From positions 2,208,001-2,272,000 of the forward strand of contig CP000071.1 in the NCBI GenBank assembly GCA_000002445.1: 64,000 bases of DNA, given 5' to 3'. This stretch comes from Trypanosoma brucei (lineage: Eukaryota). Every line of letters begins with the position of its first letter. Position 1 is the first letter of the stretch. The translations under genes and the position numbers were made by a program. The notes under the pieces are model-generated. The model ran no database searches. It worked only from the letters and a program-made list of their open reading frames with translations, and had not been told where the DNA came from. This document shows positions 1-56,055 of this stretch, one piece after another.

Positions 1-1
1 A

Positions 2-34593: not shown

Positions 34594-34595
<2 letters not shown>

Positions 34596-34624
<29 letters not shown>
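34596..34624 (+). repeat. (CAA)n microsatellite
   Basis: caacaacaacaacaacaacaacaacaa, read directly. Confidence 0.95.
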
Positions 34625-37169: not shown

Positions 37170-37500
37170 AAAGTGGAGGCAGTGTGAGAAGAGAAGAAGG
37201 GGAAGGAGGAGCCCATTAGAAAGCAAATCGAGGGAAAGACGTGTAGAGATAGGAAGGGACAAGGGGGAAAAAAAACAACAACTAAAACGGCGGAAAAAAA
37301 GGAAGGGAAGTAGAAAATAAATAAATCGTTAAAAGTAGATATATTACACATAACAGGTTAGGGGTGGACGGAAGGCGGCAAAAGGAGTGACGAAGGGATA
37401 ATCACAACCAGACGGAAGTAGCAAGGAAAGAAGGAATCAAAGGAAGGGGACAAAAAATCGAGGTGGATTGTCTGAGGGAGAACAGAGGGGGTGCGTGGAT
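37170..37500 (+). repeat. Polypurine (GA-rich) tract of ~330 nt on the plus strand
   Basis: aaagtggaggcagtgtgagaagagaagaaggggaaggagga...ggaaggggacaaaaaatcgaggtgg, with very few pyrimidines. Confidence 0.85.
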
Positions 37501-38544
37501 TTAGCACCATTATAACATTATATCTTATAGGAGTTCACCATTTCTTTTTTAAAACAACAGCAGTACAAATTAGTGTCGAGAAGAGAAAAAGCCAAAAGGG
37601 GAGCCTTTTGTTCCGGATTACATAAGTTGTTTTTGAAAATAACTGATCAGTAAAGCAACCAAAACAGGAGGCAACTGAACATTAAAAAAAAAGAATAGTG
37701 GCGTGTTTTATATATTGTTTGTGTATTTGTTGTGTTCAAGTTCCCTATTGTATATCTAGTTACTCATTTCCGTGCTCCTTAGCGTTAGCCCTCCATTTTT
37801 TTTACTCCCTTAAGTCTCGAGCACAAGGAGAGAAGGAGAGAAGGAGGGAAGGAGAGGAAAAATTGCGGAGAGGAGCGTGGGGTGGGGACAATTAAACGGA
37901 GAGGAAAGATTTGCTTTTTTAAATTTCATTTATATTTATACATATTTTGACGTCATTTTGTTGGGAAGCGAGTAGTAAATTCTTTCCACCAGTGAGAAAG
38001 CAAAAGAAGTTGCAAGGGGGTTGACTCGTCCGTTTGTTTTGCCTTACTGTTTTGCTGGTTGAGTTGATTCGGCTCGACTTGAAGTGTGGGGCTCCTGAAC
38101 CAACCAAAAGATTAACCGAAGGTTCTGAGTGTAGGAGGTGCAGTGAAAAAGTAGCGGTAACTTCAAAAACAAAGGCATATAAGGGGGAAGGGAATCACCG
38201 TGACATTTATACTAAATCTTGCATATACCAATTTACAAATATATAGCGTTGTGAAGCAACTGGGGCATTGCCAAAAGGGTGTGAAATAGCCAGGGATACA
38301 GCAGGGAGAAAGACGCGGTGCACGCACGGTGCGAAGGAGGGAAGTAAGAGGGAGGAGGAGATTCTACTTCCCTTTTTGGTTTTGCTTTATTCTTATTATC
38401 ATTATTATTGGAACACAACTTGCATTAAATTTTTGTTATTGAGGTCTTCATCGTTTGAATTGCTTCGTTAAACACACACACACACCCACACACACAACGC
38501 CCTCAACAACGACACCGACTTAAACACGCTCACAAAATACGCAG

Positions 38545-41500
38545 ATGGGGGCTGTGCCCAGCCGTGAGTCCTTGGGGCGCGGACTGTGCCAAATACCAGA
38601 TTATGGGCAGAAGCACAAAATGGTGCTCATTCCCTTAACGAGAGAGTTCTTCCCGTCACCCGACTGTTTGCTCTTACGGCAGCTCTTTGAGGCGCGGAGG
38701 GATCCGTTTGTCCATTACTATCACACATTCGATGAGGGGTTTGCTAAGGCGCAAGCGCCAGATCCTGCTGTGGACGCTGACGCCGCAAAACTTTATGATC
38801 TCCAGGGTCTTGTTGCTCCATCAACCAGCGCCTCCGCTACCGCCCATCTCGTTGAGGGCAAGGCATGGCGTGCTGATGACTTTGTGCCTTTTAGCTGTAC
38901 ACTGGAAGAGTTCTACGACTCGTATGTGTGCCGTATGGGCGAGCGCCGCATATACGATACAGATGAACAGATGCTCAGGTTGTGCACGCGGGACCCGAAC
39001 GCGATCCGCCCTGTGCCGTGCGCGGTAGCGTTTGCTTATAACTCTGCCCCCACGCCCTCCGTACTCGGTAATAAAGAGGCGCTTGGTGGGGAGGTCATGT
39101 TGCGTGAGGATGGTAGTAATAGTGAACTGGGTAACAGCGGTGGGGAAAGTAGAGCTGAGGTAGGGGATGCAAAGGGCAGTACGCTAGAGGAAAGCAGCAT
39201 GCTTTTTGGATTGTACGTGCGTATCGTTGGTTTCGTTGGTGGTGTGAGTGACATCTGCCCGCATGGTTGTAACGATGTGTTGCTGGAGGATACGTTTCAA
39301 CTACAAGTGTTTCTTAACAAGTCGGTTGGAGACCACAACTTTGTACACGCCTTCATAACGGCCGTTTATACCTATGTAAGGCAATGGCGTGAGGCAGCGG
39401 TGATGCACATAGGGAGTATTGAGGACCAAAGGCAACCGACGGGACGTGGCTCGGTTGAGGTAGGGGAAGGGGGACATTCTAAGGTTTCCTCCACTATGAG
39501 TGGCGAGAAGCCGTTGATGACACCTCCTGCTGCGTCTGTTGTTATTGCATGCAAGCGGACCAACGTTCCAATGCTATGTTTCCAGCGGGGGTTGCGAGCG
39601 ATGCTATCACGACTCCTAGGCATTGTGGAGTCCGAGGGGATAAGTAACCCCGGAGGGCCGTGTTGTTGTCGGTGCCGCAGAAAAAATGATTGTATTCTTC
39701 AGACGCATAAATTAGCAGCTGGGGTTCCGTTGGGTACGCCACAAGACGGCGATACCAAAGTTGTCAGCGAATGTTCTTCTGCTCCTTCTTTGGAAAAAAC
39801 TACCATGTTGGAGAATGTCTTTGACATGTGGTTGAATGGCGACGTAGTGTTTGCATGTATTCCAAAGCAAATTGTAGCACGTGCTTTGGAATGTGTTGGG
39901 ATGCGCATGGGTTGCCCAGAGTGCATAATGGACATTGTGCGACCAAAACGTACTGAAACGCGGGCGGGCTGTAACACGGAAGTGAGGACGGCGCAGTCTA
40001 ATCCCCATGTCGGAGTGGCCCGGGATGTGTGCTCGCTGCACTCAACTGCCGATGCTTTTTGCCCACAAGATGCCGTTAACGCATTGGCTACCACTGCCGC
40101 TAAGGGTTCCTCCTCAAAAGGCTATGGGGGCGGTCTCAAAGTGTGCGACTCTGAGGCCGCTGCCACTGAACTACCTGCACATCAAAAGCTGCATGACGTA
40201 TTGGGCGAGACTGTGGTTGTGGAGGAATGGCCAGTGGATGGGATCGATCTGGTCAGCTTTACGAACGCCAAGGGGGATACCATCGACCGCCCGGCGCACT
40301 TGTATTGGGTAGTTGGGCGTTCAGTGACTGCCCAAGAAACCGCAGCCTCTGCCTTTTTCTCATGGTGGGCTGGTGGGAGGCTAACGGTTATGGGAGGAGG
40401 ATGTGACGTGTCGAACGAAAGTGAGCACGAAAGAAGCAACAGTGGGAAGGGGAAAGTGGATGAACGCTTGTCGGTCGGAGAGTTGCTTTACCTCAATATG
40501 AACCCATGCCAGTCAAATGCGATGCGTCAGTGGGTTCTTCAGCGTACCACGCTCCCACTGGAGGAGCTTTTGCTATCTGAACTACATGACAGCTGCAAGC
40601 TGGCACGACAGGCGCCGGTTGATGCAGAGAACTGGCTGCGCCATACTGACATCAGCGGCCCACGAGAGCGTGACAGGTCTCTACTGCTACCGCTAGGTGC
40701 TGAGGATACCAATGGGGAAGACTTGTCAGAGTTTGCTGTTGGTGTAAGACAACTTGTTGGCGAAGGTTCGCTTTGTTTGTGGCGGGTGACACTCGTGACA
40801 GGTGCAGTGCGCGCTATAGCGGTCACACCGCACTTTCTTCGCCCGCCACGGAAAAAGCGGGCGCGCAGAAAGCCAACCCGGCGCCCGTATGCTCCGGAGC
40901 AGGCTAATGCAACATCGACGGCGGTGGATGGGGCTGCACCGGTCAACAGCTTTGGGCCCTCAGCGGAGACGCAGGCATCCAAGGGCAGAAGAGCAACGAG
41001 GTCAAAGATGGTAACAAGACGGTCGGTACCATTACCAACAGCTGTCGTATCGGAAGGTGTGCTAAGGAGCGACGAACGGTCCGCCATGTCGCCATCGTTG
41101 AGCCAAGGGCTCTGCAGGGAGGGCGGAGTCCCTCCGATGGCTCCTCCTAACACCACGCCTTCTGTGGGTTTTGGTCGTGTGCGGACTCGGCAGCAGCCTT
41201 GCTGCTACGGAAACCCTGCGCTGGCTTCCCATATGGAGGTGCCTGCATTTCCCCAAGGTCAACAATCCGGTTTTGTTGCTTTCAACCAGCCAGTTGTCGA
41301 TTCTAGTCATTCCCCCGTTTCTGATGCAAGCTATGCAAATAGGCGTACGTCGACTCCTTTTCTGAGCCGCCGAACTTCAAGGGAGGATCAACTTGGGTTT
41401 ATGCCTTACGACAGTTACAATGTTTCGCGCCGCATAAGCAGTGACGTAACAAGCCAACGCTTATCTACGGCTTCCTTCACCCATTTCCCTCGTTGGGACG

Positions 41501-41859
41501 GGTGTGGAACCATCTGGCCCTACACAGGTTCGGAGGAACGGCCGAGTGTTACACGGCATTCGTCAGCGGTGGGAGGTGGGTGCACTCCCTTTTTTCAGCC
41601 GGCAGATGGATGGTCAAATTCCATGCACTCACGTTCTGGCACCCGCGAGGACTTTCACCCTTCCTGTGCCCTCCACCGGACCGGCGGAGGTTTCAGCAGC
41701 AGCGGCGGCTGCAGCAGTGAAAGTGTTGCAGGTTGTGCCCGCACTCAATTCGACTTCATTTCTGCGTCTGGACTTGGAACTGATGAGGTGTACGCCGATG
41801 GGGCGGAGGTGAGAACCCCAACACTTAATGTAACGGTGCGGCGTGGCCTGCAACACTGA
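38545..41859 (+). CDS. Large hypothetical protein, member 1 of an unrecognised MGAxPSRE N-terminal-domain family (1104 aa)
   Basis: Long plus-strand ORF behind a CT-rich tract. The N-terminus MGAVPSRE fits the N-myristoylation consensus (G2, S6, R7). It shares conserved blocks with the ORFs at 44048 and 53587 (VLIPLTREFFPSPDC, YDTDEQM, PVPCAVAFAY, VRIVGFVGG, NVPMLCFQRGLRAMLSRLLG). The C-terminal half is Ser/Pro/Arg-rich and low in complexity. Confidence 0.8.
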   Translation: MGAVPSRESLGRGLCQIPDYGQKHKMVLIPLTREFFPSPDCLLLRQLFEARRDPFVHYYHTFDEGFAKAQAPDPAVDADAAKLYDLQGLVAPSTSASATAHLVEGKAWRADDFVPFSCTLEEFYDSYVCRMGERRIYDTDEQMLRLCTRDPNAIRPVPCAVAFAYNSAPTPSVLGNKEALGGEVMLREDGSNSELGNSGGESRAEVGDAKGSTLEESSMLFGLYVRIVGFVGGVSDICPHGCNDVLLEDTFQLQVFLNKSVGDHNFVHAFITAVYTYVRQWREAAVMHIGSIEDQRQPTGRGSVEVGEGGHSKVSSTMSGEKPLMTPPAASVVIACKRTNVPMLCFQRGLRAMLSRLLGIVESEGISNPGGPCCCRCRRKNDCILQTHKLAAGVPLGTPQDGDTKVVSECSSAPSLEKTTMLENVFDMWLNGDVVFACIPKQIVARALECVGMRMGCPECIMDIVRPKRTETRAGCNTEVRTAQSNPHVGVARDVCSLHSTADAFCPQDAVNALATTAAKGSSSKGYGGGLKVCDSEAAATELPAHQKLHDVLGETVVVEEWPVDGIDLVSFTNAKGDTIDRPAHLYWVVGRSVTAQETAASAFFSWWAGGRLTVMGGGCDVSNESEHERSNSGKGKVDERLSVGELLYLNMNPCQSNAMRQWVLQRTTLPLEELLLSELHDSCKLARQAPVDAENWLRHTDISGPRERDRSLLLPLGAEDTNGEDLSEFAVGVRQLVGEGSLCLWRVTLVTGAVRAIAVTPHFLRPPRKKRARRKPTRRPYAPEQANATSTAVDGAAPVNSFGPSAETQASKGRRATRSKMVTRRSVPLPTAVVSEGVLRSDERSAMSPSLSQGLCREGGVPPMAPPNTTPSVGFGRVRTRQQPCCYGNPALASHMEVPAFPQGQQSGFVAFNQPVVDSSHSPVSDASYANRRTSTPFLSRRTSREDQLGFMPYDSYNVSRRISSDVTSQRLSTASFTHFPRWDGCGTIWPYTGSEERPSVTRHSSAVGGGCTPFFQPADGWSNSMHSRSGTREDFHPSCALHRTGGGFSSSGGCSSESVAGCARTQFDFISASGLGTDEVYADGAEVRTPTLNVTVRRGLQH

Positions 41860-43769
41860 CCTTTTGCAAAGCTTCATAGTGATGTATTGGTTTTAAAGAG
41901 CGCTCTACGTCTTTAAGTGGGCATCGTTGGGGAAGTGAGAATAGGTGCCGCTATTGCGGAATCTTTCACTAACTAGACCCAAGCACACTCTGGCTGATGA
42001 AGGTGCGCGCGTGGCGTCTGCTCCGTGAAAAATTCTGCCCTTTCTCTGTGCTGAGTGCTGCACGATCCCATATTTTGGGAAGAAACAAGTTGTGATAAAG
42101 GCAGTCTGTATCTCATGGTCTGTACGAGCCTAGGGAAAAAAAATGTAAATAGAATGTACTAAGCCAGTAAAGGTTAGGCAAGCGCACAGGCGCGGGTAAA
42201 GGGTCAGGAAAAGAGACTGAAATAAATGTGGGAAACTTATGAGGTTGAGCAAGTCGGCTTCGTCCTTTCCTTCCCCTTCTCATCGTTTCCTCTATTGTTG
42301 CCATTAAATGAAATGACCCCATTGGGAGTGGAAAAGACGTTTGTGAAGGGTCCTTAATTTATGTGATGTTTTGCTGCCAGACGTGTTGCGTCGTACTCAT
42401 TCGTTGAAGTGTATTGTGGCATACCATTCGTCGAAAGCAGTAGCAGCAACGCCAACAGCGTATCTCTTTTCTTCCGTTCTTATCTTTCGTTACTACAAGC
42501 GCGAGGGGTATCATTCTTCCTGCGCATCATTATCTCTGTTGGAGATCCTACGGTCCCGTGGCAAGCGTATGCGGATGCGTTTGCATCGTTGCACTTGTTA
42601 CCAGCGTATACCGATAAGTACTCTCACAGGAGTTCGTGTTTACGTACACGACATGCTTTTCTATTTTTTCCCCCTCTCCTGCTGCTTATTTTTCTTTGAA
42701 ATACATACACGCACACGCCGGTGTTTTAAAGTCGTTAACAGACGACATGCGATTTCTTCCCGGTATGACTCAATATCCTTTTTTTTCCTCCGCCCCACAC
42801 GTTCACCAATTTTGTTTTTCTGTTTCGTTTTGTTTTGTGTGGATGTGTTGTCCACTGTCTCCCCTCGACATTACTTTCCCCTTGGCACCTGCTTGCGTAC
42901 GTTACTCGTGCTTTTGCGGTATCAATCCCCTTACCTCATCTCCACCCGCTCTACCATTTCGATTTCCCTTTTATATCTTCTTTAGTTTCATGGCGTCCCC
43001 TGGTTGAATGGCGTTCGTGCTTCTCTTTTCATTTCGTTGCTGCTTCAACAGAACCTTCGGTGAGTGGAGACTCGAACAGTGACAGCAAGGGGGGTGTATG
43101 AATGCGTCGTCGGCGTCAGAGGCAGGCGAAATAAGTAAACAAAGGACACGCGCGGTTGTACAGGTGGTTGAATATAACATGCATACTGCTTTCACCCTCG
43201 ATGTTGCTTCTTTTTGTGGCAATAATGTGGCAATGAACGAAAATTTTCTTGTGACATTTGTTGTTTTGGAATTTATTAACATTATTATTGCTATTGTTGT
43301 TGTTTTACGGGTGAATTTGATTGCCATACGGCCCTTTCTCTTGCTCTTGCTCTTTTTTTTGTACACTGAAAATCCCTTTAGCGTGCCCCGTGAAGCTAGA
43401 AAAGGACGAGAGTATTTTAAGGATCTACTGGAAAAAGGGAATAAGAAACAACAACAAAAACAACAAAAGAGGGGCAAATCCAACTGTTGAATACGAACAT
43501 AATTTTCAACGTCAAATAGCCCAATATTTCATTTTAGCTAGAGGGAAAAGATCAGAAGGGCGAGGTACGTCTTCCTTTAAATTTTCCTCTATTTGTTTAA
43601 GGACAAAAAATATAATAGTCGATTGCTTAACCCACGCGAGGAGGCCACTAAATCTACGGGAATATACGCAAACCTATACAGTCATTGGTCGTGACATCGC
43701 CGTGTGGCCACTACTTCCTTATCCTCCCAAAGTGGGTGATATCAGAACACTGATTGTCGCGTGGTAGGC

Positions 43770-43838
43770 CTGTTTTTTTCTTTTTCTTTTTTTTTTGTTG
43801 TTGCCCCTTTTTACACTACTTGTGAATAGCCGGGGGAA
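43770..43838 (+). promoter_or_regulatory. Polypyrimidine tract plus AG, candidate trans-splice acceptor for the 44048 gene
   Basis: cctgtttttttctttttcttttttttttgttgttgcccctttttacactacttgtgaatag, ending in AG about 210 nt upstream of the ATG. Confidence 0.4.
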
Positions 43839-44047
43839 GCGCCGCTGAAAGGGAAGACACATATACATATATACACAAGGTACACCCCCACAAAATTGTC
43901 CGCATCTGCGCTTACCGGTGTGTGTTAACGGTAAAAAAGGAGGAGGAAGGGAAACAGATTGGGGAATAAGCAACAGAGATAATTATATAAATAAATATAT
44001 AACTTTTCATTGGATTACATTAACATTATATATATAACATTTTTGCA

Positions 44048-46747
44048 ATGGGTGCTGCTCCAAGCAGGGAGACACTACGACGGGGGCTATACAACGTGCC
44101 AACACAGATGAAGAATAATGTTGACAGCTCCCGATCTCAAAGCAAACCAGACATTGTACTTATTCCGCTCATTAAAGAATATTTTCCATCGGCCGACTGC
44201 CCGCTGTTCGTGCAGTTTCACAAGATGCGGTGTGATCCGGGTGTGAATTATTACTTCCGCCACCCTCTGTACCCGGGTGATTTGAGCCGCATTCCCAACG
44301 TGCATAGCAATGATGCCAGGTCTTCTAACCGATCGAGAGATGCACTGTATTCTGAATTTGTGGAGCAGACAGAGGAGAGACTCTTTGATACAGATAATGA
44401 GATGCGACAGGCACATGAGCTTTCCATGAGTGACAGGTCTGCCGGTGGATCCCCTTCCTTCCATATGGAGGGGGCGAAAACAGCAAACGTTGGGAAAAAA
44501 GTTCTTCCGATCATATGCGCAGTGGCTTTTCTCCACGATCGCGAGAAGTTTGAACAACTTCAACAGACTCAGGGGACTCCGGGGGGTAGCAGGGTGCCAC
44601 ATGTTTTGATGGGGAAGGAAAACTCGGATATTCTTGAAGGAAAGGTTGTCAACATCATCGGTTTCTTTGGTATGTTACCAAGGGAGATAGAGCGGAAACC
44701 GTTGACATCTCCGGTAATCTTCAGTCCCGTAAGTCCCGGATTAAGTGCGACCGGAAAAGGCATTGCGGCACCAAGTATGTTGAAAAATTCTCTTTCTCTG
44801 CCATGTACAGCTAGGGGGCCCAGCCATGGTTCCTCGCAAGACCTTCAGCAACTGATTGCACCGCTCTCTTCACAGGCTTCAGTGGCTAGTGGGAACGAAC
44901 TTCGCAACCGTCCCAGCTTTGTACCTACGCCGCACGTGCCACCTGAACGATGCCCGTTGACAGCATCCGCTGGTGCCTTTTCACTGGTGTCCTCTCTCGG
45001 CGGGACGCCAGCTCGGGAACCGTCGGCGAGACAGCGACCCTTCTTGCAGTCAGAAGGTTTGTTACGGGAAATGGACCAGGCGTTGTCTTACCGTTGCACT
45101 GCGTTGGAGGAGAGGCTTAGCCGGTTTGGTTTGCCGGCACCTGCGGCGCCGGAGCCGCTTACAGCTGTTGTTTTTATGACCAAGTCTGCGGGAGAGCAAA
45201 ACCTGTGTCGGGTGACTTTTGTGGCCGCCAAGACTTATCATGGCCAGCTGGTTGAGGCTGGGGTACTAAAGCAGCGTGGAAATGGCCCTTCACCACCGCT
45301 GGAATCCGAAAGGCGGTATCTCCCACCTTTGGAAACATTTAGTTTTTCATCGCTGATGACAAACGTACCGTTTATTTCATTCGTGTACGAAATGCGTTGT
45401 CGCTGGGGACGCTTTGGGTTTTTCTCTCGACGTGTGGACTCACCGTCCTTACGGATGGGTTCTCTGAATGCTTCCTCCAGTTTTACTTACGGCTTTACGG
45501 GAGGCGCACATTCAGAGGCACCGAATCCGGAAGAGACACACAGGGGCTTCGCCATGTGGCTGACAAAAAACGGTGTGTTCCATGGCCGAATCGAAAGAGA
45601 ACTGGCGGAACATCTTTGTTTTTGCATGGCAGAACAGCCCGACTTCATGTCAGTCCCAGCTGCAACACTTCCAATAGGTGGGGGTTACTGGCGGTTCCGT
45701 GGCCTTGTTGACCGTAACAACCCACGACCTATTCAGCTTTGTGGCGACGGTGCTGAAGCGGCGGACCCGCTTGATGTGTATGTCATGGGTTCCCCAGCGG
45801 TTGGTGGTTTTGACGAGGGTGATGTTTTGAAATATGACCAAACGAGCCGTTCGTGGGTGGCCAACCGGGACATCCCACTCGATGCTGTTGTCCTTGCGGC
45901 AATGCGGCCATTTTGCAAGGCTGCGCGCACAGCTCCACCCGATGACATCGGGTGGGTGACTATTGAGGTGGAAGAGCAAGACGAGATGGGGGTTGAAGAC
46001 CAGGATCATCTTGAGACGGCGGGAAAGAGGGATATGGATACCGGGGCAGTTGTTCGTCAAGAGGACCGTGATGGTACTGTGGTGAGAAAACGAGTCCACG
46101 TTCGTGAAGGGAATTTCTATATCTATCGTTTTGAGCTGAATGGTGAGGTGCATTACCACGGTACTGTGCCAGATTTCGCGAATCCCAACAAAAAGAGGGC
46201 ATCGCACAGCAGTTCTGTCGGGGCGAGGAGTGTAGCTCCCATGGGGCCAGCGGTTGTCGCACGGCGTTTTGATAATACGAACGAAAGGGGCCGTCAACAT
46301 TCTGTTGGATTAACAGCAGACCGCAGCACCAACGAGCACTCATTGTCTGTGACTTCAACGTTTTCCCCCCCCTTTGTTGAGAGTTTTATGGGGAGCGAAA
46401 GGACGAGTGCAACGTTCCTAGCAAGCCCTCTCCAGCCCGTAAGGGAGGCCATCAGTCGCTCGGTGGGGACGGTCTCGTATTCTAATCGGGGCTATGAGTC
46501 GACCGGGAGCCAGTCCTCTTTTCCTGTTGTGCCTGTGACCCCAGATACGATGTTTCCTCCATCGAGAGGGCTGACAACGCCGGTGGCGCGTCGCAGGTCG
46601 ACATTTGTGCCAGTTGGCTCGGAGGTCGAAGTGGATGAGTCGCAACGGGACACGAATGAATCGGACGGAGGGCCAACAGCATTTGTCAGGCGCTTCATAG
46701 ACTCAACGGTTTATATATGGGACTGGAGATATTGCGCAGATAGATAA
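44048..46747 (+). CDS. Large hypothetical protein, member 2 of the MGAxPSRE family (899 aa)
   Basis: N-terminus MGAAPSRETLRRGLYNVP...IVLIPLIKEYFPSADCPLF. Further blocks shared with the other two members: FDTDNEMR, LPIICAVAFLHD, VNIIGFFGMLP, NVPFISFVYEMRCRWGRFG. Confidence 0.8.
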   Translation: MGAAPSRETLRRGLYNVPTQMKNNVDSSRSQSKPDIVLIPLIKEYFPSADCPLFVQFHKMRCDPGVNYYFRHPLYPGDLSRIPNVHSNDARSSNRSRDALYSEFVEQTEERLFDTDNEMRQAHELSMSDRSAGGSPSFHMEGAKTANVGKKVLPIICAVAFLHDREKFEQLQQTQGTPGGSRVPHVLMGKENSDILEGKVVNIIGFFGMLPREIERKPLTSPVIFSPVSPGLSATGKGIAAPSMLKNSLSLPCTARGPSHGSSQDLQQLIAPLSSQASVASGNELRNRPSFVPTPHVPPERCPLTASAGAFSLVSSLGGTPAREPSARQRPFLQSEGLLREMDQALSYRCTALEERLSRFGLPAPAAPEPLTAVVFMTKSAGEQNLCRVTFVAAKTYHGQLVEAGVLKQRGNGPSPPLESERRYLPPLETFSFSSLMTNVPFISFVYEMRCRWGRFGFFSRRVDSPSLRMGSLNASSSFTYGFTGGAHSEAPNPEETHRGFAMWLTKNGVFHGRIERELAEHLCFCMAEQPDFMSVPAATLPIGGGYWRFRGLVDRNNPRPIQLCGDGAEAADPLDVYVMGSPAVGGFDEGDVLKYDQTSRSWVANRDIPLDAVVLAAMRPFCKAARTAPPDDIGWVTIEVEEQDEMGVEDQDHLETAGKRDMDTGAVVRQEDRDGTVVRKRVHVREGNFYIYRFELNGEVHYHGTVPDFANPNKKRASHSSSVGARSVAPMGPAVVARRFDNTNERGRQHSVGLTADRSTNEHSLSVTSTFSPPFVESFMGSERTSATFLASPLQPVREAISRSVGTVSYSNRGYESTGSQSSFPVVPVTPDTMFPPSRGLTTPVARRRSTFVPVGSEVEVDESQRDTNESDGGPTAFVRRFIDSTVYIWDWRYCADR

Positions 46748-48928: not shown

Positions 48929-50632
48929 TTGTTTTTTCGATATAAGAAGGACATGCAGTTTTGTGGCGGGCTTGTTTGCCGCACACCACCACGACGATTT
49001 GCATGGAAGCAAACTTACAGCCAACTTCTACCATCACACTCCATGGTTCCCTCTGCGTACATATGCGGGCGTTTGCGCCAAGCGCACCACTACTCCGGTC
49101 GATTTGCTTGTAGCGCTGCTTCTGTTGTGGTAGAGAGTCCCTCTGATGGAGCTGGGATCCTCACTTTCACAGCCAACACAGTTGATGGCGCTGCGCGTGC
49201 GCTCAGCGAAATAATGCATGAAGCTCAGGCGCTTTCTCATTCTGTGGAACTTCGCGCGTTGGAGCGCCTGGAGGCCATCCTAAGGCAAAACGCTGACTTA
49301 CTGGCATTAGCGGAGGCCCTTGCTACGGGAATATGTTTGCGTGAAGCTCGGAACTCGATTGGGTTGGCGGCAAACGTCGTCGGAAGTTGTGCGGAACGTC
49401 TGCGTGGGTGCCCCGCCTCGGTCGCCGCCAGCGAGACCATTGATGTGGAGGACTTACTTCGTTCGTTGGGCTGCAGTGACAGGGGTATCAACTGTCACGG
49501 TATCAGGTGTGCAACTGGCGGAGGTTCCTCGGTAGCGCTGTGCTACACATCGGCCAATTACCCCCTTCAGAGAGGTGTTGAGGCTATCGCCGCCGCTCTT
49601 TTGCGAGGTCATGTGGTCGTCTGGCTGCCATCACTTGAAGCACCGCTCTCCGCGTTGTGGCTTATGCAGTTGCTTTGCCGCTCTTTCAGCTGCCAAGCTG
49701 ACGAAAACGACAGTCGGAGTGCCACTAGTGATGACAAGGGCTGCGATCCGGGCGTTGGTATGCATACCGTGGACCCTATAAATATCATTTTGTATCGCGG
49801 TGAAAACTCAATTTTACTTGAAAAGGCTTTCGGCGTACGAGGCGCCCGTGAAGGCTTGGAGCTAGTAGGGTTGACGAACGGCTTTACAGAAGGCCAAACA
49901 AACCAGTTTTCCGTCCACTTGTCGGATAGCCAAGTGAGACGTTCGGATATTAGCGCCTTGTACGCCATTGATTGGCACCATCGGTTGACTAAACCTGCGG
50001 TTGCCATTGTTAGTGTTTCCCAAGGGGAATCACAGTCATTTTCACCTTCTATCCCATTGACGGCATGCGCGGCAGTGGCGAAAACAGATTCAGCGCCTAC
50101 ACACGTGGAATGTGTAGCTGAAAATTTCTTTCATCACGCCTTTCACTGCAATGGGAGAACACTGCACCCACTTCACGTGGCGTTCATTCCCCACGAGGAT
50201 GTGCTACCGATACTCCGTTACCTTCGGGAGCGCATACGACAGGTGCGCATTGGGCACAGTCTTGACAGCAGTGTTGAGCTTGGCCCGCTTCCCACTTCTA
50301 AACACCTCTCTTTGGTGAAGGAACTTATTGAGTCTGCTACTAGCGGTGACGATGATGCTGGGGTCTGTATTCAACAGGTGTGCGGCGGGTTCGAGGTAGC
50401 GATGCCTGCAGGTTTTTTTTGCCTTCCCTGTGTGCTGTATGCCCGGCTGCCGAATGAAGCACCAGGTGCAGTTTCTTCGATGGTTGAACGAGTCATGAAG
50501 CTGCGCACGGAGTTGGATGAATTGGGAGGTGGTCCTGTAGCTCTTGTGTGCGCCTATGACCTTCGGCACCAGTTAGATGAGTTACACGTATGGAAGGACA
50601 ACGCGCAACATTATGTTGTGCATGACTGGTGA
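48929..50632 (+). CDS. Divergent aldehyde dehydrogenase (ALDH) superfamily-like protein, possibly catalytically degenerate (567 aa)
   Basis: Blocks follow the ALDH fold in order: RALERLEAILRQNADLLALAEALATG (like ALDH R..L.KLADLIE.N.DELA.LE.LD.GK), ANYPLQRGVEAIAAALLRGHVVVWLPSLEAPLSALWL (like WNFPL..A.WK.APALAAGN.VVLKP.E.TPLTAL), a VGxxxD-like block VRIGHSLDSSVELGPL, and a C-terminal ELGGGPV (like E.FGPV). The canonical ELGGKSP glutamate site appears replaced (VSVSQGESQ); a Cys is retained in AFHCNGR. The basic, Arg-rich N-terminus suggests an organellar presequence. Confidence 0.55.
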   Translation: MFFRYKKDMQFCGGLVCRTPPRRFAWKQTYSQLLPSHSMVPSAYICGRLRQAHHYSGRFACSAASVVVESPSDGAGILTFTANTVDGAARALSEIMHEAQALSHSVELRALERLEAILRQNADLLALAEALATGICLREARNSIGLAANVVGSCAERLRGCPASVAASETIDVEDLLRSLGCSDRGINCHGIRCATGGGSSVALCYTSANYPLQRGVEAIAAALLRGHVVVWLPSLEAPLSALWLMQLLCRSFSCQADENDSRSATSDDKGCDPGVGMHTVDPINIILYRGENSILLEKAFGVRGAREGLELVGLTNGFTEGQTNQFSVHLSDSQVRRSDISALYAIDWHHRLTKPAVAIVSVSQGESQSFSPSIPLTACAAVAKTDSAPTHVECVAENFFHHAFHCNGRTLHPLHVAFIPHEDVLPILRYLRERIRQVRIGHSLDSSVELGPLPTSKHLSLVKELIESATSGDDDAGVCIQQVCGGFEVAMPAGFFCLPCVLYARLPNEAPGAVSSMVERVMKLRTELDELGGGPVALVCAYDLRHQLDELHVWKDNAQHYVVHDW

Positions 50633-52460
50633 GTGCGCGGCGATATATTTGAGGAATAGGTGGGGACGTGAGCAGATGCCACATTAAGTGTTGCGTGGTA
50701 TGCCAAGTTAAATCGTACAGCTGCCGTGGAAATTAGGAGAAGAAAGTGCCGCAATACGCATTTGGTGTTAACAGTGAAACCGTGTATATGCTTGTGTGTG
50801 TGTGTGTGTGGAATTGGTGATACGGAAAGGAAATGTGCCAACAGTTCGGCGGCCAAAAAGCGGTACGATAACCTTTGTCCAGTACGCGCAGTCTGTGTTA
50901 CGTCGCGGAAGTGGAGTTTCTTTGTGCCATGGCTTGCCGTTATTGCTATTGTTATTACTGTTATTATTATTATTATCATCATCATCGGTATTAATCCATC
51001 TATTTATTTCCTGTCTGATGTTATGCCTCGAGCCATACCGCAATTCCCGCATCCTCTTTACTGTTTGCCTTCTTCATCTTTCTTTCCTCTGAAAGGGGCA
51101 CCGTGGCGAAGAAACGGCAAAAAGCGAGAAGGAAGAGGGAATAATAGGGAAGCAAAATCATTTGGGGTACTTGGAACAAGAGAAGGAGAGAGCAGAAAAC
51201 GAAAAAAAAAATAGAAATAGAAAAAAGGACTCCAAAGGGGACGTTGTGCGCGTGTAGGTGCCCAGCCGAAGACAAGCAACTATTAAGCAAGCAAACAAGC
51301 AAGCAAGTGAAGAAGAGCAAGAGGAGACGAGAGAATAATACGTTAAGTGGCAGTTAGTTGTACGTATACGCACATATTTATATATATACATATACATTTA
51401 AGTACACATATAAAGTGAGGAAACAGAATAGGGTGGAGTGCATCTGTAAAAGTCCCATCCCCGTTGTTTAGTGCACACGCAAACTTTCAAAACGGACAAA
51501 CGCGCGTTTCCGTGTGAAGAGGCCATTCTATTGCTGACACGTCTCCGCGTAGCACCTGTGCCGTCGTTTTGAATATTCGTCTGTTTTTTTTCCTTCGTTT
51601 TCTTGATAAAAGAAAATCACATATAGTTAAATTTGACTTTTGCTGATTTAAATTTTTTTTTTTTAAAGAAAAGAAAAGCGGTGTGGAATATACGTTGTTG
51701 CGGGAGGGGAAAGAAGAGACGGGAGGAAACAAAACCAGAGGTGTGGAAGCATCGAGTTCTATAACGGGAATAATATTAAATCATAGGGGGGGGGTTGAAA
51801 ACACGCAAACAGACAGGAAAAAGAAAACAACAATAACGAGAGGGGGAGTCCTGACGACGCACTGACAAGAAGTATCAAATCAGTATAGTTTTTCTTTTTT
51901 CTTTTTTCTTTTGCATCTTTCAACGACACCAGAAAAAGGGGAATAAATAAATTGTAAACTTCTTTCTGTACGCGTACTACATACGTATATACATACATAT
52001 ACATATTTATACATAGGAAAAAAATTTCGTTTCTTTTTTTTTTTTCTTTAAATTTTCGTCCACCAATCGCTCCTCTGCTTTAAACAAAACGGGACAAGGT
52101 AATAAAACAAGAGTAAAATAAATTCAAGGAAAGTAAGAGAGTCGTTTACTTTGTAACTTTTTGCTCTCTTTGCATTTGCATTTGCATTTTTCTCCTCTTT
52201 TTTGTTTTTCTCCTTTGTAATTTTATCTTTCATTATTAAAATCATAATTGTCACCATTTTCTACCGCCCGTCTTTCTGTTTCTGCTTTGCTCTTCGCGTG
52301 GATTCATTTTTTCTTTGTCACTAACTCCCTCAACTACAGTGTGTTACTTTAACACAAACCTAGCGGTTGTGCGTGTGTGCGTGTGTGTGTGTGTTTTAAA
52401 TCTTAGATAACCCTCATTGTCATTTTTTTTGATTTATATTTTGCCACCGCAGAGTCCGTG

Positions 52461-52665
52461 GAAGTAAAAGAGAGGAATAACAAAAACGATAAATAATAGG
52501 GAAAAAAAGAAGGGGAAAGGAGAGAAAAAGGTAAAAAAGGGAGAAAAAGGCGTGACAGTAGTTGTGGTTGGAGGGGGACCCCGAATAGAAAAAAAAAAGG
52601 AAGGAAGAAAAAAAAAAGAGGGAAAAGGACGGAGAGAGAAAGAGGGATCCGGGGACGGCGCAATT
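52461..52665 (+). repeat. Polypurine (GA-rich) tract of ~200 nt on the plus strand
   Basis: agaggaataacaaaaacgataaataatagggaaaaaaagaaggggaaaggagagaaaaaggtaaaaaagggagaaaaagg... Confidence 0.85.
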
Positions 52666-53557
52666 ATATAAAAAGATATACAACACACACGTGCTATCGC
52701 TTCTTTGTTCTGTGGTTTATACAAACACATTCACATCCGTATTAGTTTTCTTATTAATATATCGTGCCGCGCCACACATTTCTTGTGCAGACATATATAT
52801 TTATACACATTTGTTTTTATATAAAAGGTGAGGAATTGAAGGAGTTTTTTTTTCTTTGCGCCATCGATCTATTCGCTTTCACCACAAGTCGCCACCGTCA
52901 TTGCGCCATTAATTTACTACTCGCGGTTATTCCATCAAGGGTGGAAAGGGAGGGATTGACAGGAGATAAATAAAGCAATTCAAACCTTTTTTTTTTCTAA
53001 AAAAAGTGAGAGAAGGAAAAAAAAAGAAGAAAGTGACGGGGTGAAAACAAGTAAATCCAATAATATAAGGAGGTATAGTTATAAATAAATAAATATATAT
53101 TGGGGGAGGCGTACAAGTTAGAATATAAAGGTATTTCCAAGTAGCTTACTCTTGACATCAGTTGTTTTAATAATAATAATAATAGCATTGACTTTAGGGT
53201 TCTTGTTGACCATTTTTTTTTAAAAGGAAAACAAAATCGTTCTGCTTTTTTTTTTCCGTTTGACTAAAAACCTTTCCCTACATTGTGGAGCGGGTGCCGT
53301 TTTTTCAGTGTCTTTTTTCTTTGTAATTTGATCAGTTGAGATCGGGGAGGAGTGGGGTTAAGGGTTAGGGGTTTGTTGGATTTTTGTCTTTTTTTTTCCT
53401 TGAGAAGAGACCCAAGTAAAGAAGGAGGAAAAAAAAAGACAGATTTGTAAAGAGAGGAATTTAGAACGGAAGGGACCCAACAGAGATAAAGAGGAGAGGA
53501 GAGGAGAGGTGTGTGTGGTAGTTCCTTTTTTTTTCTTTACATTAATTTTTTCGTGAG

Positions 53558-53580
53558 GTGTGTGTGTGTGTGTGTGTGTG
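53558..53580 (+). repeat. (TG)n microsatellite directly abutting a start codon
   Basis: gtgtgtgtgtgtgtgtgtgtg ends 6 nt before the MGALPSRE ATG at 53587. The repeat contains an in-frame upstream ATG at 53560. Confidence 0.95.
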
Positions 53581-53586
53581 ACGAAT

Positions 53587-56055
53587 ATGGGAGCACTGCC
53601 GAGCAGGGAAACACAACACCGCGGTTTGTATAGCCATCGTCATGGGCGCAATAGGCGGAGTGAAGTTATTTTAGTTCCTCTTACCAGTGAGTTCTTTCCG
53701 AGTGAGAGCTGCCCTCTTTTTACGCATTTATTCCAGGCGAAGCACCACCGCACCGCCAAATATTACTATCGAGCAACACGCCCCGCCGACACGGATTGGG
53801 AATCCGATTATTATTGTCAAACGACCGCCCACGTCCGTAATATCAACATAACTGATTCAGATGATTCCGCAAAGGTCGGACACTTTGAGACATTCTTCAC
53901 GGATGATATCTCAGGACTATATCACAGACTCGTGCGCGAGACCGAGTACTGCATGTGTGAAACGGATGAGGAGCTTCGGACACGATACGAAGAGCAGATC
54001 CGCCAGCAACAGCACCATCAGCGAAAGCAGCGACTGCAAAGACCGGAGAAATCAAGCGATTATGGGACTGCTGGTGGCCGCTCGTACGAGGAATATTTTG
54101 GATTTGCTTCCGGCGCTTACACCAGTGGCTACACTGATGCTTTGGCCTTCATGAAGGGAAGGGAGCAGCACACGCACCGCAATGCGTGTGGTACGCATGT
54201 AACTTCATCGAGTGCCTATTACCTTCGTCCTATTCCATGTGCAATTGTGTCGCGGTCCGAGGCACACAAATCTGCATCTGAGACTGGGGTTGAGTTCCTT
54301 GGTTCAACGGTTAAGGTGCTCGGTATGTTTGGGCTTCTTCCCTCCATAATCCCAGTGACTGTGCATGGCGAAGTGATGGAGCAGCATATGCTGAAGGCCA
54401 CAATGTTCGTTGACAAGGATGTCGGCGACCAGATATTGGGTAACGTAGTGATGCTTGCTGTCCACATGTACGTCCGACAATGTATTGAGGCCCGTATCCG
54501 AGCTCCATACATTCCAATGGTTCCCATGATTCTTCGGACACCCATATCAAACATCCCGATGCTACAGTTTGTGCGGGAGATGCGAGTGCGTCTTCGTGGC
54601 TTGTTGGAAGCCGGTGCACCGCGCCGGGGCGGAGGAGCGGGAAGGCGTGTGGGTTCATTCCACGGCACTGAGGGAACTCGCGAGGCGGTGGAGGCATCTT
54701 CCCGTTGTGAGGCAGATATACTGTACCTTTTTGAAGAGGATGTACCCAATGCCATTTCTGCCCACCAACTTTTCCTTGATCCGGCGGAGGCACAGTCACT
54801 AAGGCTCCACCCGGCACAGAACACCAATTCTGATGGTACCATTCCGATTCTCCTCATGTCGGGCGTGAATGTGCAGGCGGCACCACTAACACATCCCTCC
54901 GTTACGAGTATGTCACATGTGCGCGTCCCGCCGTGGGCGCTTGAAGGCGCCTCCGACTCTGCAGGCGGTGGACCATCCGAAGCGTCCCCGCAGCGTGAAG
55001 CCTTCCAGGCCACGTCGCTTTTGGCAACACGACGGAACCGCTTCCGCATTTGGGTGGAAGGTGGTCGGCTGTGCATTTGGGCGAGTGCCGCGTACGCTCG
55101 GCGGGGGTGTCTTATGCTCGCTCAGAAGCTTACACAGACGGTTGACAATAATCTTTTGCCAGTACCACGCCCGTGGAATTACCGTGGTCTTTTGCGCGGT
55201 GGTATGCCAATGCCGGAGCCAGAGCTCGCCAATGATGTGTTCATTGTGGCTGAGGACATGCCGAGTATGGGGCTTTATCAGGGTGACGTTCTCCGTTGCA
55301 GCACTCCCGTGGAGATCGCTGATCAGCAACAACGGCTGTCACTGCACGGAACATCCGCAACATCTTCGTCCACGTTACTCGAGGCGATATGTGTGCACAG
55401 CAAGAAAAGTGTGACCAGCGCCTCCACACCTATGGAACCGACGACACCCGGTGGGCAGCAAAAAAGTCAGGAGAGTTTTGCAAGCAGTCACCCCACTAAT
55501 TTACTTCTACAGGATCCGGGCGAGGCCCCACCGAATGCCTTCTGGGTGTGCATTCCTTTCGACCGCGACTGTGTGAGTGCGGGACCTAATGAAAGACGGC
55601 AACAACAACATCAACTGGACACTGTGTCCCATCGGGCAACCAATGTGGAAGAGGTTCTTCTCTCGTGGATCAAAATAATTTCACTCAAGACCCGCGAAGC
55701 CAGTGAGGAGGATGTGTATTGGGTGCGTGACCCCACAACCGGAGCGCCACTCCGGGTGGATCGCTACGTTATACGCCGTGTGGAGCATGATGGCATGCGT
55801 TATTTCATTGGTGTCACCCCGCGCTTTGTTGGGCAACAGCGCCGATTGGAGAGAATGTTGGAAGACATCAAAGCTCAAGATGCGGGAAGTCCGGATTTGG
55901 ACGTGGAGCGGGAGGGGTTTCACATGTCGCCCACACACGCTGGCACAGCTTTGGAGGGTAATGATGACGACAGTGAAGACGATGATGCAGATGATGGATG
56001 CGCTGCCATGGCGCAGATGCTCAGCGGGCAGTCAAATATATTTTACAGGGAATAG
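53587..56055 (+). CDS. Large hypothetical protein, member 3 of the MGAxPSRE family (822 aa from the ATG at 53587)
   Basis: MGALPSRETQHRGLY...VILVPLTSEFFPSESCPLF. Shared blocks: CETDEELR, RPIPCAIVS, VKVLGMFGLLP, NIPMLQFVREMRVRLRGLL. Acidic C-terminus (DDDSEDDDADDG). The ORF-track start at 53560 lies inside the (TG)n tract and is judged spurious. Confidence 0.8.
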   Translation: MGALPSRETQHRGLYSHRHGRNRRSEVILVPLTSEFFPSESCPLFTHLFQAKHHRTAKYYYRATRPADTDWESDYYCQTTAHVRNINITDSDDSAKVGHFETFFTDDISGLYHRLVRETEYCMCETDEELRTRYEEQIRQQQHHQRKQRLQRPEKSSDYGTAGGRSYEEYFGFASGAYTSGYTDALAFMKGREQHTHRNACGTHVTSSSAYYLRPIPCAIVSRSEAHKSASETGVEFLGSTVKVLGMFGLLPSIIPVTVHGEVMEQHMLKATMFVDKDVGDQILGNVVMLAVHMYVRQCIEARIRAPYIPMVPMILRTPISNIPMLQFVREMRVRLRGLLEAGAPRRGGGAGRRVGSFHGTEGTREAVEASSRCEADILYLFEEDVPNAISAHQLFLDPAEAQSLRLHPAQNTNSDGTIPILLMSGVNVQAAPLTHPSVTSMSHVRVPPWALEGASDSAGGGPSEASPQREAFQATSLLATRRNRFRIWVEGGRLCIWASAAYARRGCLMLAQKLTQTVDNNLLPVPRPWNYRGLLRGGMPMPEPELANDVFIVAEDMPSMGLYQGDVLRCSTPVEIADQQQRLSLHGTSATSSSTLLEAICVHSKKSVTSASTPMEPTTPGGQQKSQESFASSHPTNLLLQDPGEAPPNAFWVCIPFDRDCVSAGPNERRQQQHQLDTVSHRATNVEEVLLSWIKIISLKTREASEEDVYWVRDPTTGAPLRVDRYVIRRVEHDGMRYFIGVTPRFVGQQRRLERMLEDIKAQDAGSPDLDVEREGFHMSPTHAGTALEGNDDDSEDDDADDGCAAMAQMLSGQSNIFYRE

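What the first reader, a model, noticed from the sequence alone, without database searches (positions are those of the whole stretch)
38545..56055. Three dispersed paralogs of an unrecognised large-protein family with a conserved, predicted N-myristoylated N-terminal domain
The ORFs at 38545 (1104 aa), 44048 (899 aa) and 53587 (822 aa) share these features.
- The start MGA[VAL]PSRE[ST]xxRGL, where G2, S6 and a basic residue at position 7 fit the N-myristoyltransferase consensus.
- A block about 20 residues downstream: [VI][LI][IV]PL[TI]xE[FY]FPSxxC[LP]LF.
- Then a YY motif, [YF]DTD[EN][EQ][ML]R, P[VI][PI]CA[VI], a glycine-rich block (V[RNK][IV][VIL]G[FM][VF]G) and N[VI]P[MF][LI]xF.
The C-terminal halves are divergent, disordered and Ser/Pro/Arg-rich. 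I do not recognise this as a named kinetoplastid family. Three same-strand copies within 18 kb, separated by unrelated genes (ALDH-like), suggest an old local expansion. A conserved acylated N-terminus followed by a Cys-containing motif fits a membrane- or flagellum-associated scaffold family. If that is right, it would be a lineage-specific group of peripheral membrane proteins.
Basis: seen in the sequence. Interest (0 to 1): 0.8.

Follow-up and report, generated by a model that had tools for sequence, protein, structure and literature searches.

The report
Three PuREBP1-family genes in Trypanosoma brucei
The three genes are real, anciently diverged relatives of PuREBP1, a known trypanosome RNA-binding regulator of nutrient-transporter mRNAs; the family is lipid-modified (N-myristoylated) at its start in related parasites, and its conserved front domain is predicted to fold like an acetyltransferase, which suggests a way these regulators could sense metabolites.

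Summary
Three same-strand ORFs (38545, 44048, 53587) are significantly related (BLASTP 2e-11 to 6e-14) and share the MGAxPSRE start and downstream blocks. The window is T. brucei chromosome 8, and the genes are Tb927.8.7750, .7760 and .7780.

The family is not wholly unrecognised. Gene C is 74% identical to its chromosome-4 twin Tb927.4.4550 (PuREBP1), an essential, cytosolic RNA-binding repressor of NT8 and AATP6 mRNAs.

The N-myristoylation prediction is supported by published chemical proteomics on orthologues:
- In L. donovani, the lipid-tagged peptide G*ALPSHETHER of the C-type orthologue was sequenced.
- In T. cruzi, the B-type orthologue was enriched, and an NMT inhibitor reduced that enrichment.

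The membrane or flagellar scaffold reading is not supported.

New here:
- An exhaustive HMMER search finds only 92 representatives; all named or inspected ones are trypanosomatid. They fall into about eight subfamilies.
- The family's most conserved loop (K-x-V/A-G-D/E) sits where GNATs bind CoA.
- A second conserved C-terminal module exists.

Verdict: new members of a known but poorly characterised family. Interest is moderate.

The parts
38545..41859 (+). Gene A = Tb927.8.7750 (XP_847602.1, 1104 aa), the A-type family member. Its chromosome-4 twin is Tb927.4.4580 (45% identity).
44048..46747 (+). Gene B = Tb927.8.7760 (XP_847603.1, 899 aa), the B-type member. Its T. cruzi orthologue K4E6H0 is experimentally N-myristoylated.
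53587..56055 (+). Gene C = Tb927.8.7780 (XP_847605.1, 822 aa), the chromosome-8 twin of PuREBP1 (Tb927.4.4550), 74% identical over 100% of its length. The true start is the ATG at 53587, not the upstream GTG at 53560.
38545..38568 (+). A residues 1-8, MGAVPSRE: N-myristoylation site plus a conserved N-terminal octapeptide.
   Evidence: Of the 122 collected sequences that start MG, 120 have P5, 120 have S6, 102 have R7 and 113 have E8.
44048..44071 (+). B residues 1-8, MGAAPSRE.
   Evidence: orthologue data.
53587..53610 (+). C residues 1-8, MGALPSRE.
   Evidence: The modified peptide of the L. donovani orthologue is.
53626..54606 (+). C residues about 14-340: predicted GNAT-like fold domain. 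Elements: b1 26-31, a1 43-53, a2 108-151, b2 218-223, b3 240-259, b4 262-275, a3 283-301, b5 314-319, a4 323-335. Disordered insertions lie at 88-104 and 155-211.
38614..39615 (+). A residues about 24-357: homologous N-terminal domain, assigned by alignment to C.
44147..45415 (+). B residues about 34-456: homologous N-terminal domain. It carries a long insertion of roughly 150 aa between the VNIIGFFG strand and the KSAGEQ loop.
54415..54432 (+). C residues K277-Q282, KDVGDQ: the family's most conserved loop. It sits at the b4-a3 junction, where GNAT motif A (Q/R-x-x-G-x-G/A) binds the CoA pyrophosphate.
39319..39336 (+). A residues K259-H264, KSVGDH: the same loop.
45182..45199 (+). B residues K379-Q384, KSAGEQ: the same loop.
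54550..54585 (+). C residues N322-R333, NIPMLQFVREMR: b5-a4 junction, the position of GNAT motif B. The equivalent in A is at 39562-39597 and in B at 45362-45382.
55645..55884 (+). C residues 687-766: second conserved module (helix, short strands, beta-hairpin, then a long helix that starts at a basic patch). Fold unassigned.
40525..40863 (+). A residues 661-773: the same C-terminal module (PLEELLLSELHDSCKLARQA...LCLWRVTLVTGAVRAIAVTPHFLRPPRKKRA).
45848..46201 (+). B residues 601-718: the same C-terminal module.
46712..46729 (+). B residues 889-894, YIWDWR: the extreme C-terminal motif [YF]xW[DN][WPH], shared by many subfamilies. It is absent from A and C.

Best explanation
The three ORFs are Tb927.8.7750, Tb927.8.7760 and Tb927.8.7780 of Trypanosoma brucei chromosome 8. 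They are three anciently diverged paralogues of the PuREBP1 family, which so far has been found only in trypanosomatids.

Architecture, partly shown and partly predicted:
- An invariant N-terminal octapeptide, MG-x-x-PS-R-E, whose Gly2 is myristoylated co-translationally by NMT.
- A divergent GNAT-like (acyl-CoA N-acyltransferase fold) domain interrupted by disordered loops.
- A second conserved helix-hairpin-helix module near the C-terminus.
- Low-complexity tails.

Function, inferred from the characterised twin. C most likely acts like PuREBP1, as a cytosolic, sequence-specific mRNA-binding repressor of a handful of transcripts such as nutrient transporters, probably in complex with PuREBP2. 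A and B are likely regulators or adaptors with the same fold but other RNA or ligand specificities.

The native, acylated N-terminus appears to be needed for complex assembly rather than for stable membrane anchoring. An N-terminal tag on PuREBP1 abolishes both PuREBP2 binding and NT8 mRNA binding, whereas a C-terminal tag does not.

The GNAT-like pocket is the best candidate site for the still unknown metabolite input. This last step is inference.
For: Identity of the genes:
- Exact-sequence and cluster look-ups place A, B and C on T. brucei chromosome 8.
- Gene IDs come from Jackson 2007 (PMC2212663).

Function of the twin (PMC8053114):
- It binds RNA in vivo (OOPS, RIP).
- It binds the PuRE stem-loop together with PuREBP2.
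- It represses NT8 and AATP6 mRNAs, is essential, and seems cytosolic.
- N-terminal TAP tagging abolishes PuREBP2 and NT8 mRNA binding.
- The L. infantum orthologue co-purifies with RBP23; ZC3H41 and CCR4-NOT subunits are in the same list (PMC8575317).

Family:
- Pairwise BLASTP is 2e-11 to 6e-14.
- Exhaustive HMMER over 1.84 billion representatives gives 92 hits. All named or inspected ones are trypanosomatid.
- 118 of 137 collected sequences start MG..PS.

Myristoylation:
- L. donovani YnMyr-modified peptides were sequenced for G*ALPSHETHER (LdBPK_311430, which is the C-type orthologue because P0043 starts MGALPSHETHER) and G*TAPSAEIVPDAPFR (LdBPK_311550).
- LdBPK_200770 is listed under 'high confidence myristoylation'.
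- T. cruzi K4E6H0 (B-type) is enriched in LFQ and SILAC and reduced by DDD85646. TCSYLVIO_002913 and K4DTI6 behave similarly.

Fold:
- The AF2 model has pTM 0.74, and its core blocks have pLDDT of about 78-95.
- The weak Foldseek hits are mostly GNATs too.
- The residues invariant across all 35 aligned A-, B- and C-type sequences all fall in core elements.
Against: - No experiment on A, B or C themselves was found, apart from detection of Tb927.8.7780 in a bloodstream-form proteome.
- RNA binding by A and B is extrapolated across 22-25% identity.
- No T. brucei myristoylation dataset could be consulted.
- The GNAT assignment rests on one AlphaFold model built from a 35-sequence alignment. There is no sequence-level support: no Pfam hit for any of the 35 members, nothing real in a PDB profile search, and hhalign against RimI gives E 0.57.
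- The last G/A of GNAT motif A is replaced by Q, H, K or R.
- The C-terminal half modelled alone was poor (pLDDT 46) and gave no fold match.
- The TrypTag 'cytosolic' call for PuREBP1 may come from an N-terminally tagged, and therefore non-myristoylated, protein.
Confidence: 0.7

Rival explanations
1. These are peripheral membrane or flagellar scaffold proteins, held on membranes by N-myristate plus a nearby acylated cysteine, with disordered C-terminal halves acting as scaffolds.
For: - N-myristoylation of orthologues is real.
- About half of the extra mRNAs bound by PuREBP1/2 encode putative membrane proteins. That would be compatible with action near membranes.
- The TrypTag localisation may have used an N-terminal tag that blocks acylation.
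Against: - No Cys at positions 3-5. The only Cys in the first 20 residues is C15 in A, and it is not conserved (Y in T. vivax).
- The conserved 'FPSxxC' Cys lies in the folded core of the model, where pLDDT is about 95.
- PuREBP1 is reported as seemingly cytosolic. It behaves as a soluble complex of about 440-669 kDa and binds specific mRNAs.
- Myristate alone gives only weak, transient membrane affinity (established knowledge).
- Residues 1-10 are predicted with pLDDT 88, which suggests that they pack on the domain.
Confidence: 0.12
2. The N-terminal domain is a catalytically active GNAT acyltransferase, acylating a protein, a small molecule or RNA. RNA binding would be secondary.
For: - A conserved loop, [KR]-x-[VA]-G-[DE]-x, sits at the CoA-pyrophosphate position, and a conserved Asn sits at the start of a4.
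- GNAT enzymes that act on tRNA or aminoacyl-tRNA exist (for example AtaT; such toxins are among the hits).
Against: - No sequence-profile similarity to any GNAT family.
- Motif A is incomplete.
- No catalytic residue can be assigned.
- Depleting PuREBP1 changes only a handful of mRNAs, which fits a binder or repressor better than an enzyme.
- Large disordered insertions interrupt the domain.
Confidence: 0.12
3. The similarity is a chance or compositional artefact of long low-complexity ORFs, and the ORFs are not real genes.
For: - The tails are low-complexity.
- Many long antisense ORFs occur in the same GC-rich stretches.
Against: - Composition-adjusted BLASTP E-values are 2e-11 to 6e-14.
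- Full-length orthologues exist in many trypanosomatids.
- Peptides have been detected for orthologues and for Tb927.8.7780.
Confidence: 0.01

Closest known systems
[quoted passage not shown] 2021, PMC8053114)
   Same: - C is its chromosome-8 duplicate: 74% identity, the same length (822 vs 823 aa), the same N-terminus and the same blocks.
- A and B share the N-terminal domain, the K-x-x-G-D/E loop, the N-x-P-x-L motif and the C-terminal module.
   Different: - A and B are only 22-25% identical to C, with long unrelated insertions and tails. B ends in YIWDWR and C in an acidic tail.
- No RNA targets, partners or phenotypes are known for A, B or C.
- The original paper reports no motifs, does not mention myristoylation, and does not discuss these paralogues.
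GNAT superfamily acyl-CoA N-acyltransferases (for example Rv0802c 2vzy, PA3270 1yre, RimJ/RimL/RimI, Naa50/60)
   Same: - A conserved Gly-containing loop at b4-a3 and an Asn at the start of a4 occupy the positions of motifs A and B.
   Different: - 5-13% identity and no profile-level similarity.
- Motif A lacks its last G/A.
- Long disordered insertions are present.
- The domain is fused to further modules and to an N-myristoylated leader.
- No evidence of CoA binding or catalysis.
Dually acylated trypanosomatid membrane or flagellar proteins (calflagins/FCaBP, CAP5.5 and SKCRP calpain-like proteins, HASPB)
   Same: An MG start, and experimentally NMT-dependent labelling in the same proteomic datasets.
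   Different: Those proteins carry Cys at positions 3-5 for palmitoylation (for example the GC... N-terminal peptides) and are membrane- or flagellum-bound. This family has A, V/A/L and P at positions 3-5, and its characterised member is reported as a seemingly cytosolic mRNP protein.
Nutrient-responsive RNA-binding regulators of transporter mRNAs in trypanosomes (for example ZNK1 for ZIP3, a 2026 bioRxiv preprint)
   Same: It works in a similar way: an RBP that represses a transporter mRNA through its 3'UTR when the nutrient is plentiful.
   Different: No homology. ZNK1 has zinc knuckles and a PIN nuclease domain and is nuclear.

Membership tests
PuREBP1 family | Significant full-length sequence similarity to Tb927.4.4550. 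| tested here: met
   - C against P0027 (Q583E0): 74% identity, 100% coverage, E 0.
- A-C is 2e-11 and B-C is 6e-14, each with additional collinear HSPs.
- A profile built from A-type sequences, B and C retrieves C-type proteins at 1e-171.
PuREBP1 family | Binds RNA in vivo and represses target mRNAs; forms a complex with PuREBP2. | not testable with these tools
   Known only for Tb927.4.4550. No dataset for A, B or C was found.
NMT substrates (N-myristoylated proteins) | Met-Gly start fitting G-{EDRKHPFYW}-x(2)-[STAGCN]-{P} (PROSITE PS00008). | tested here: met
   A, B and C read GAVPSR, GAAPSR and GALPSR. 119 of 137 collected family sequences fit the pattern.
NMT substrates (N-myristoylated proteins) | Experimental labelling with a myristate analogue on Gly2, sensitive to an NMT inhibitor. 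| tested here: inconclusive
   Shown in the literature for orthologues:
- The L. donovani C-type modified peptide, and LdBPK_200770 listed as high confidence.
- The T. cruzi B-type K4E6H0, sensitive to DDD85646.

No data were obtained for the T. brucei proteins themselves.
GNAT superfamily | GNAT fold (b1-a1-a2-b2-b3-b4-a3-b5-a4-b6). | tested here: met
   [not shown]
GNAT superfamily | Motif A, Q/R-x-x-G-x-G/A, at b4-a3. | tested here: inconclusive
   K-D-V-G-D-Q (C), K-S-V-G-D-H (A) and K-S-A-G-E-Q (B) sit at the right place. The first two key positions are kept and the last G/A is not.
GNAT superfamily | Detectable sequence or profile similarity to GNAT families. | tested here: not met
   - Pfam gives no hit for any of the 35 members at E up to 1.
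- A PDB profile search finds nothing real.
- hhalign against a RimI alignment gives probability 0.09% and E 0.57.
GNAT superfamily | Binds acyl-CoA and transfers the acyl group. | not testable with these tools
   Needs biochemistry.
Dually acylated membrane proteins | Palmitoylatable Cys next to the myristoylated Gly (positions 3-5). | tested here: not met
   Across the family, positions 3-5 are A/L/G, V/A/L and P. The only Cys in the first 20 residues is C15 of A.
dsRNA-binding domain (considered for the C-terminal module) | An a-b-b-b-a fold matching solved dsRBDs. | tested here: not met
   [not shown]

The most novel reading that the evidence does not exclude
The PuREBP family would be a trypanosomatid-specific set of metabolite-sensing pseudo-acyltransferases. 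A GNAT-like pocket would bind a purine-containing or acyl-CoA-type ligand, possibly together with the protein's own N-myristoyl group acting as a switch. That binding would gate assembly with partners and repression of specific mRNAs. Each of the roughly eight paralogue types, including A and B, would then couple a different nutrient signal to a different small mRNA regulon.
Probability: 0.15. Interest if true: 0.8.

Novelty: new member of a known kind. Interest (0 to 1): 0.5.

Why it matters
Trypanosomes control genes almost entirely after transcription. PuREBP1 is the first regulator that links a nutrient (purines) to a specific mRNA, but its paper left open what the protein is and how purines act on it.

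Three points from this analysis give concrete, testable handles on that question:
1. PuREBP1 belongs to a family of about eight paralogue types, three of them in this window.
2. The family is N-myristoylated, which explains why an N-terminal tag inactivates PuREBP1.
3. Its conserved domain is predicted to be GNAT-like, with a conserved loop at the CoA or nucleotide site.

The obvious tests are G2A and loop mutants, and ligand-binding assays. The work also nominates A, B and C as candidate regulators of other nutrient responses. In addition, these proteins depend on NMT, which is a validated drug target in these parasites.

Tried and rejected
- **Pfam scans.** A, B and C, then all 35 aligned members, gave no family.
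- **PDB sequence-profile search.** Only low-complexity noise came back.
- **Foldseek against the PDB.** Nothing at E of 0.001 or better; the weak hits were mostly GNATs.
- **hhalign of the N-terminal domain against a verified RimI alignment.** Not significant (E 0.57), although the register matched motif A.
- **AFDB50 fold search.** The library was not available.
- **Profile search in the word-indexed protein database.** It failed to retrieve B and C themselves, a limit of the candidate filter. The exhaustive HMMER search solved this.
- **Link between this locus and PuREBP1's AATP6 targets.** Rejected. AATP6 is the Tb927.8.4700 array, whereas the window's transporters are the Tb927.8.7600 array (AATP1) and Tb927.8.7740.
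- **Remnant of the YRWDW motif downstream of A's stop.** None found.
- **Hidden or degenerate extra family members in the window.** None found.
- **T. brucei lipidation-profiling paper (Wright et al. 2016).** Not held.
- **Supplementary tables.** The TrypTag supplements had no occurrence of the six gene IDs. The supplements of the PuREBP1 and RBP33 papers are not held.
Full report
**1. Observation**

The three ORFs exist as described: 38545-41859 (1104 aa, A), 44048-46747 (899 aa, B) and 53587-56055 (822 aa, C), all on the + strand. Composition-adjusted BLASTP is significant for every pair:
- A-B: 4e-14
- A-C: 2e-11
- B-C: 6e-14

Each pair also has further collinear HSPs.

The listed motif blocks are present in the MAFFT alignment, except that C reads CETDEE where A and B read [YF]DTD. 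Only these three ORFs in the window start MG..PS[RAH]E. tblastn with members of other subfamilies hits nothing outside A, B and C. An ALDH-like ORF lies between B and C (Pfam Aldedh, 4.6e-17).

**2. Identity of the locus**

Exact-sequence and cluster look-ups show that the window is Trypanosoma brucei chromosome 8:
- A = XP_847602.1
- B = XP_847603.1
- C = XP_847605.1

Jackson's analysis of the chromosome 4/8 duplicons pairs the genes as follows (PMC2212663):
- Tb927.4.4580 with Tb927.8.7750
- Tb927.4.4570 with Tb927.8.7760
- Tb927.4.4550 with Tb927.8.7780

This matches the accession order, so A = Tb927.8.7750, B = Tb927.8.7760 and C = Tb927.8.7780. A is 45% identical over its whole length to its chromosome-4 twin. 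[quoted passage not shown]

**3. What is known about the twin**

PuREBP1 (Tb927.4.4550) was purified on the PuRE stem-loop of the NT8 3'UTR. The published findings (PMC8053114) are:
- It cross-links to RNA in vivo and forms a salt- and detergent-resistant complex with PuREBP2.
- It is essential and seems cytosolic by TrypTag.
- The authors found no motif and no similarity outside trypanosomatids. They do not mention myristoylation or these paralogues.
- An N-terminal TAP tag abolished both PuREBP2 co-purification and NT8 mRNA binding, whereas a C-terminal tag did not.

The L. infantum orthologue co-purifies with RBP23; ZC3H41 and CCR4-NOT subunits are in the same list (PMC8575317). Tb927.8.7780 itself has been detected in a bloodstream-form proteome, where it is listed as 'hypothetical'.

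**4. Extent of the family**

A profile of A-type sequences plus B and C was searched exhaustively with HMMER against 1.84 billion representative proteins. It returned only 92 hits at E of 0.001 or better, and 77 at 1e-10 or better. Every hit that carries a source name is from a trypanosomatid (T. cruzi, T. vivax, T. theileri, T. congolense, Leishmania, Leptomonas, Porcisia, Phytomonas, Angomonas) and is labelled hypothetical.

The sequences fall into about eight recognisable subfamilies. Of 137 collected sequences, 118 start MG..PS. Among the 122 that start MG, P5 occurs in 120, S6 in 120, R7 in 102 and E8 in 113. That is more conservation than NMT recognition alone requires. Many subfamilies, including B, also end in [YF]xW[DN][WPH] (48 of 137).

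Orthologues of the A type (LdBPK_311540) and the C type (LdBPK_311430) occur in Leishmania, and a B-type orthologue (K4E6H0) occurs in T. cruzi. The A/B/C split is therefore old. The chromosome 4/8 duplication later doubled each gene in T. brucei.

**5. N-myristoylation**

The N-termini fit PROSITE PS00008. Published chemical proteomics supports the prediction in orthologues.

In L. donovani (PMC4372256):
- The YnMyr-modified peptide G(+534.33)ALPSHETHER was sequenced for LdBPK_311430. L. donovani C-type proteins start MGALPSHETHER. The signal fell with NMT inhibitor, and the authors class the protein as a likely NMT substrate of low abundance.
- G(+534.33)TAPSAEIVPDAPFR was sequenced for LdBPK_311550, a member of another subfamily.
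- LdBPK_200770 (MGAVPSRECTSLFSYF...) is listed under high-confidence myristoylation.

In T. cruzi (PMC4974623):
- The B-type orthologue K4E6H0 was enriched by azidomyristate in both LFQ and SILAC (FDR p 0.009). The enrichment was significantly reduced by DDD85646.
- TCSYLVIO_002913, the adjacent gene, and K4DTI6 behaved similarly.

I could not obtain a T. brucei dataset. Myristoylation of A, B and C themselves is therefore a strong inference, not a shown fact.

**6. Fold**

An AlphaFold2 model of full-length C, built with a 35-sequence alignment, has pTM 0.74. Its core segments have pLDDT of about 78-95, and the disordered loops are at 88-104, 155-211, 347-372, 588-635, 657-683 and 768-822.

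The order of elements in residues 14-340 is the GNAT order. The residues invariant across all A-, B- and C-type sequences lie in these elements: P215, C218, G246, G249, F274, G280, P324 and R333.

The family's most conserved loop is KDVGDQ in C, KSVGDH in A and KSAGEQ in B. A strict regular expression finds it in 74 of 105 non-redundant members. It sits at the b4-a3 junction, where GNATs carry motif A (Q/R-x-x-G-x-G/A). NIPMLQF..R sits at b5-a4, where motif B lies.

At the sequence level there is no support. Pfam finds nothing, a PDB profile search finds nothing real, and hhalign against a verified RimI alignment is not significant (E 0.57). Its one reported alignment does put K-D-V-G-D-Q on Q-R-Q-G-L-G. 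I therefore call the domain GNAT-like in fold. I do not file the family as GNAT enzymes.

**7. The rest of the protein**

The tails of A and B are rich in S, R, G, P and T. C's short tail is acidic.

**8. Interpretation**

Shown:
- The three genes are paralogues.
- C is a close paralogue of PuREBP1.
- The family has been found only in trypanosomatids.
- Orthologues are N-myristoylated.

Predicted:
- The GNAT-like fold.

Inferred:
- C acts as a PuREBP1-like mRNA repressor.
- A and B are regulators of the same build with other specificities.
- The acylated N-terminus is needed for complex assembly. This would explain the failure of the N-terminal tag.
- The GNAT-like pocket is a candidate ligand sensor.

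The membrane or flagellar scaffold idea is weak, for four reasons. There is no palmitoylatable Cys near Gly2. The conserved Cys lies in the folded core. The characterised member is a soluble, seemingly cytosolic mRNP protein. Residues 1-10 are predicted with high confidence, as if they pack on the domain.

**9. Novelty and score**

The genes are new members of a known, named but barely characterised family. In the literature I could search, three things are not described: the family-wide view, the link between existing myristoylome tables and PuREBP1, and the GNAT-like fold. They make the open question 'how do purines act on PuREBPs' experimentally approachable. Interest is moderate, at 0.5.

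Noticed in passing
window 48929-50632 (+): An ALDH-like ORF lies between B and C. Only part of it matches Pfam Aldedh (residues 68-249, 4.6e-17), so it is a divergent aldehyde dehydrogenase-like protein. It is presumably Tb927.8.7770.
   Followed up: partly
window 41857-41859 (stop codon of A); compare P0003, P0005, P0007: A and its chromosome-4 twin end at ...NVTVRRGLQH. A-type orthologues in T. vivax, Leishmania and other species continue to a terminal GTYRWDWR motif. No remnant of that motif lies downstream of A's stop, so the brucei-group proteins seem to have lost the conserved C-terminal end.
   Followed up: partly
Other species: LdBPK_311430/311440/311540/311550; TCSYLVIO_002913/002914; T. 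vivax ERJ75_000356500/356700: In Leishmania, T. cruzi and T. vivax, further family subtypes (the MGLVPSRE type of about 2400 aa, the MGxAPSAE type and the MGLAPSR type) have neighbouring gene numbers or share a contig with A-, B- or C-type genes. These extra types are absent from this T. brucei window.
   Followed up: partly
window 1-10028 and 22503-23906 (+); 20058-21251 (+): A tandem array of amino-acid transporter genes (Pfam Aa_trans) plus one more copy, and a TLC-domain (ceramide-synthase-like) gene. By the literature these are the Tb927.8.7600 array (AATP1) and Tb927.8.7740. They are not the AATP6 array that PuREBP1 represses.
   Followed up: yes
window about 24000-38500: A stretch of 14.5 kb upstream of A has no ORF of 250 aa or more on the + strand. 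It contains a short run of N (X in the translations) near 25100-25170, inside a duplicated segment (24911-25426). It also holds minus-strand ORFs with C2H2 zinc fingers (25876-26361 and 26244-26984; Pfam zf-C2H2_4, 6e-07), in what is otherwise a + strand gene cluster. No tandem repeats were found there.
   Followed up: partly
window 60402-63998 (+), runs off the end: A long open frame (over 1199 aa) encodes a Gln-rich, coiled-coil protein with a weak SPRY match at its end. This fits Tb927.8.7800 (SPRY) in Jackson's table. It is unrelated to the family.
   Followed up: partly
window 53560-53586: The mechanical ORF for C starts at a GTG 27 nt upstream (MCVCVCVTN...). The conserved MG start shows that the ATG at 53587 is the real initiation codon.
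   Followed up: yes
PMC8053114, Figure 2C and Discussion: An untagged band of PuREBP1 size co-purifies with PuREBP1-TAP and was read as self-association. Tb927.8.7780 is 74% identical and one residue shorter, so the band could in principle contain this paralogue. Paralogue-specific peptides would settle the question.
   Followed up: no
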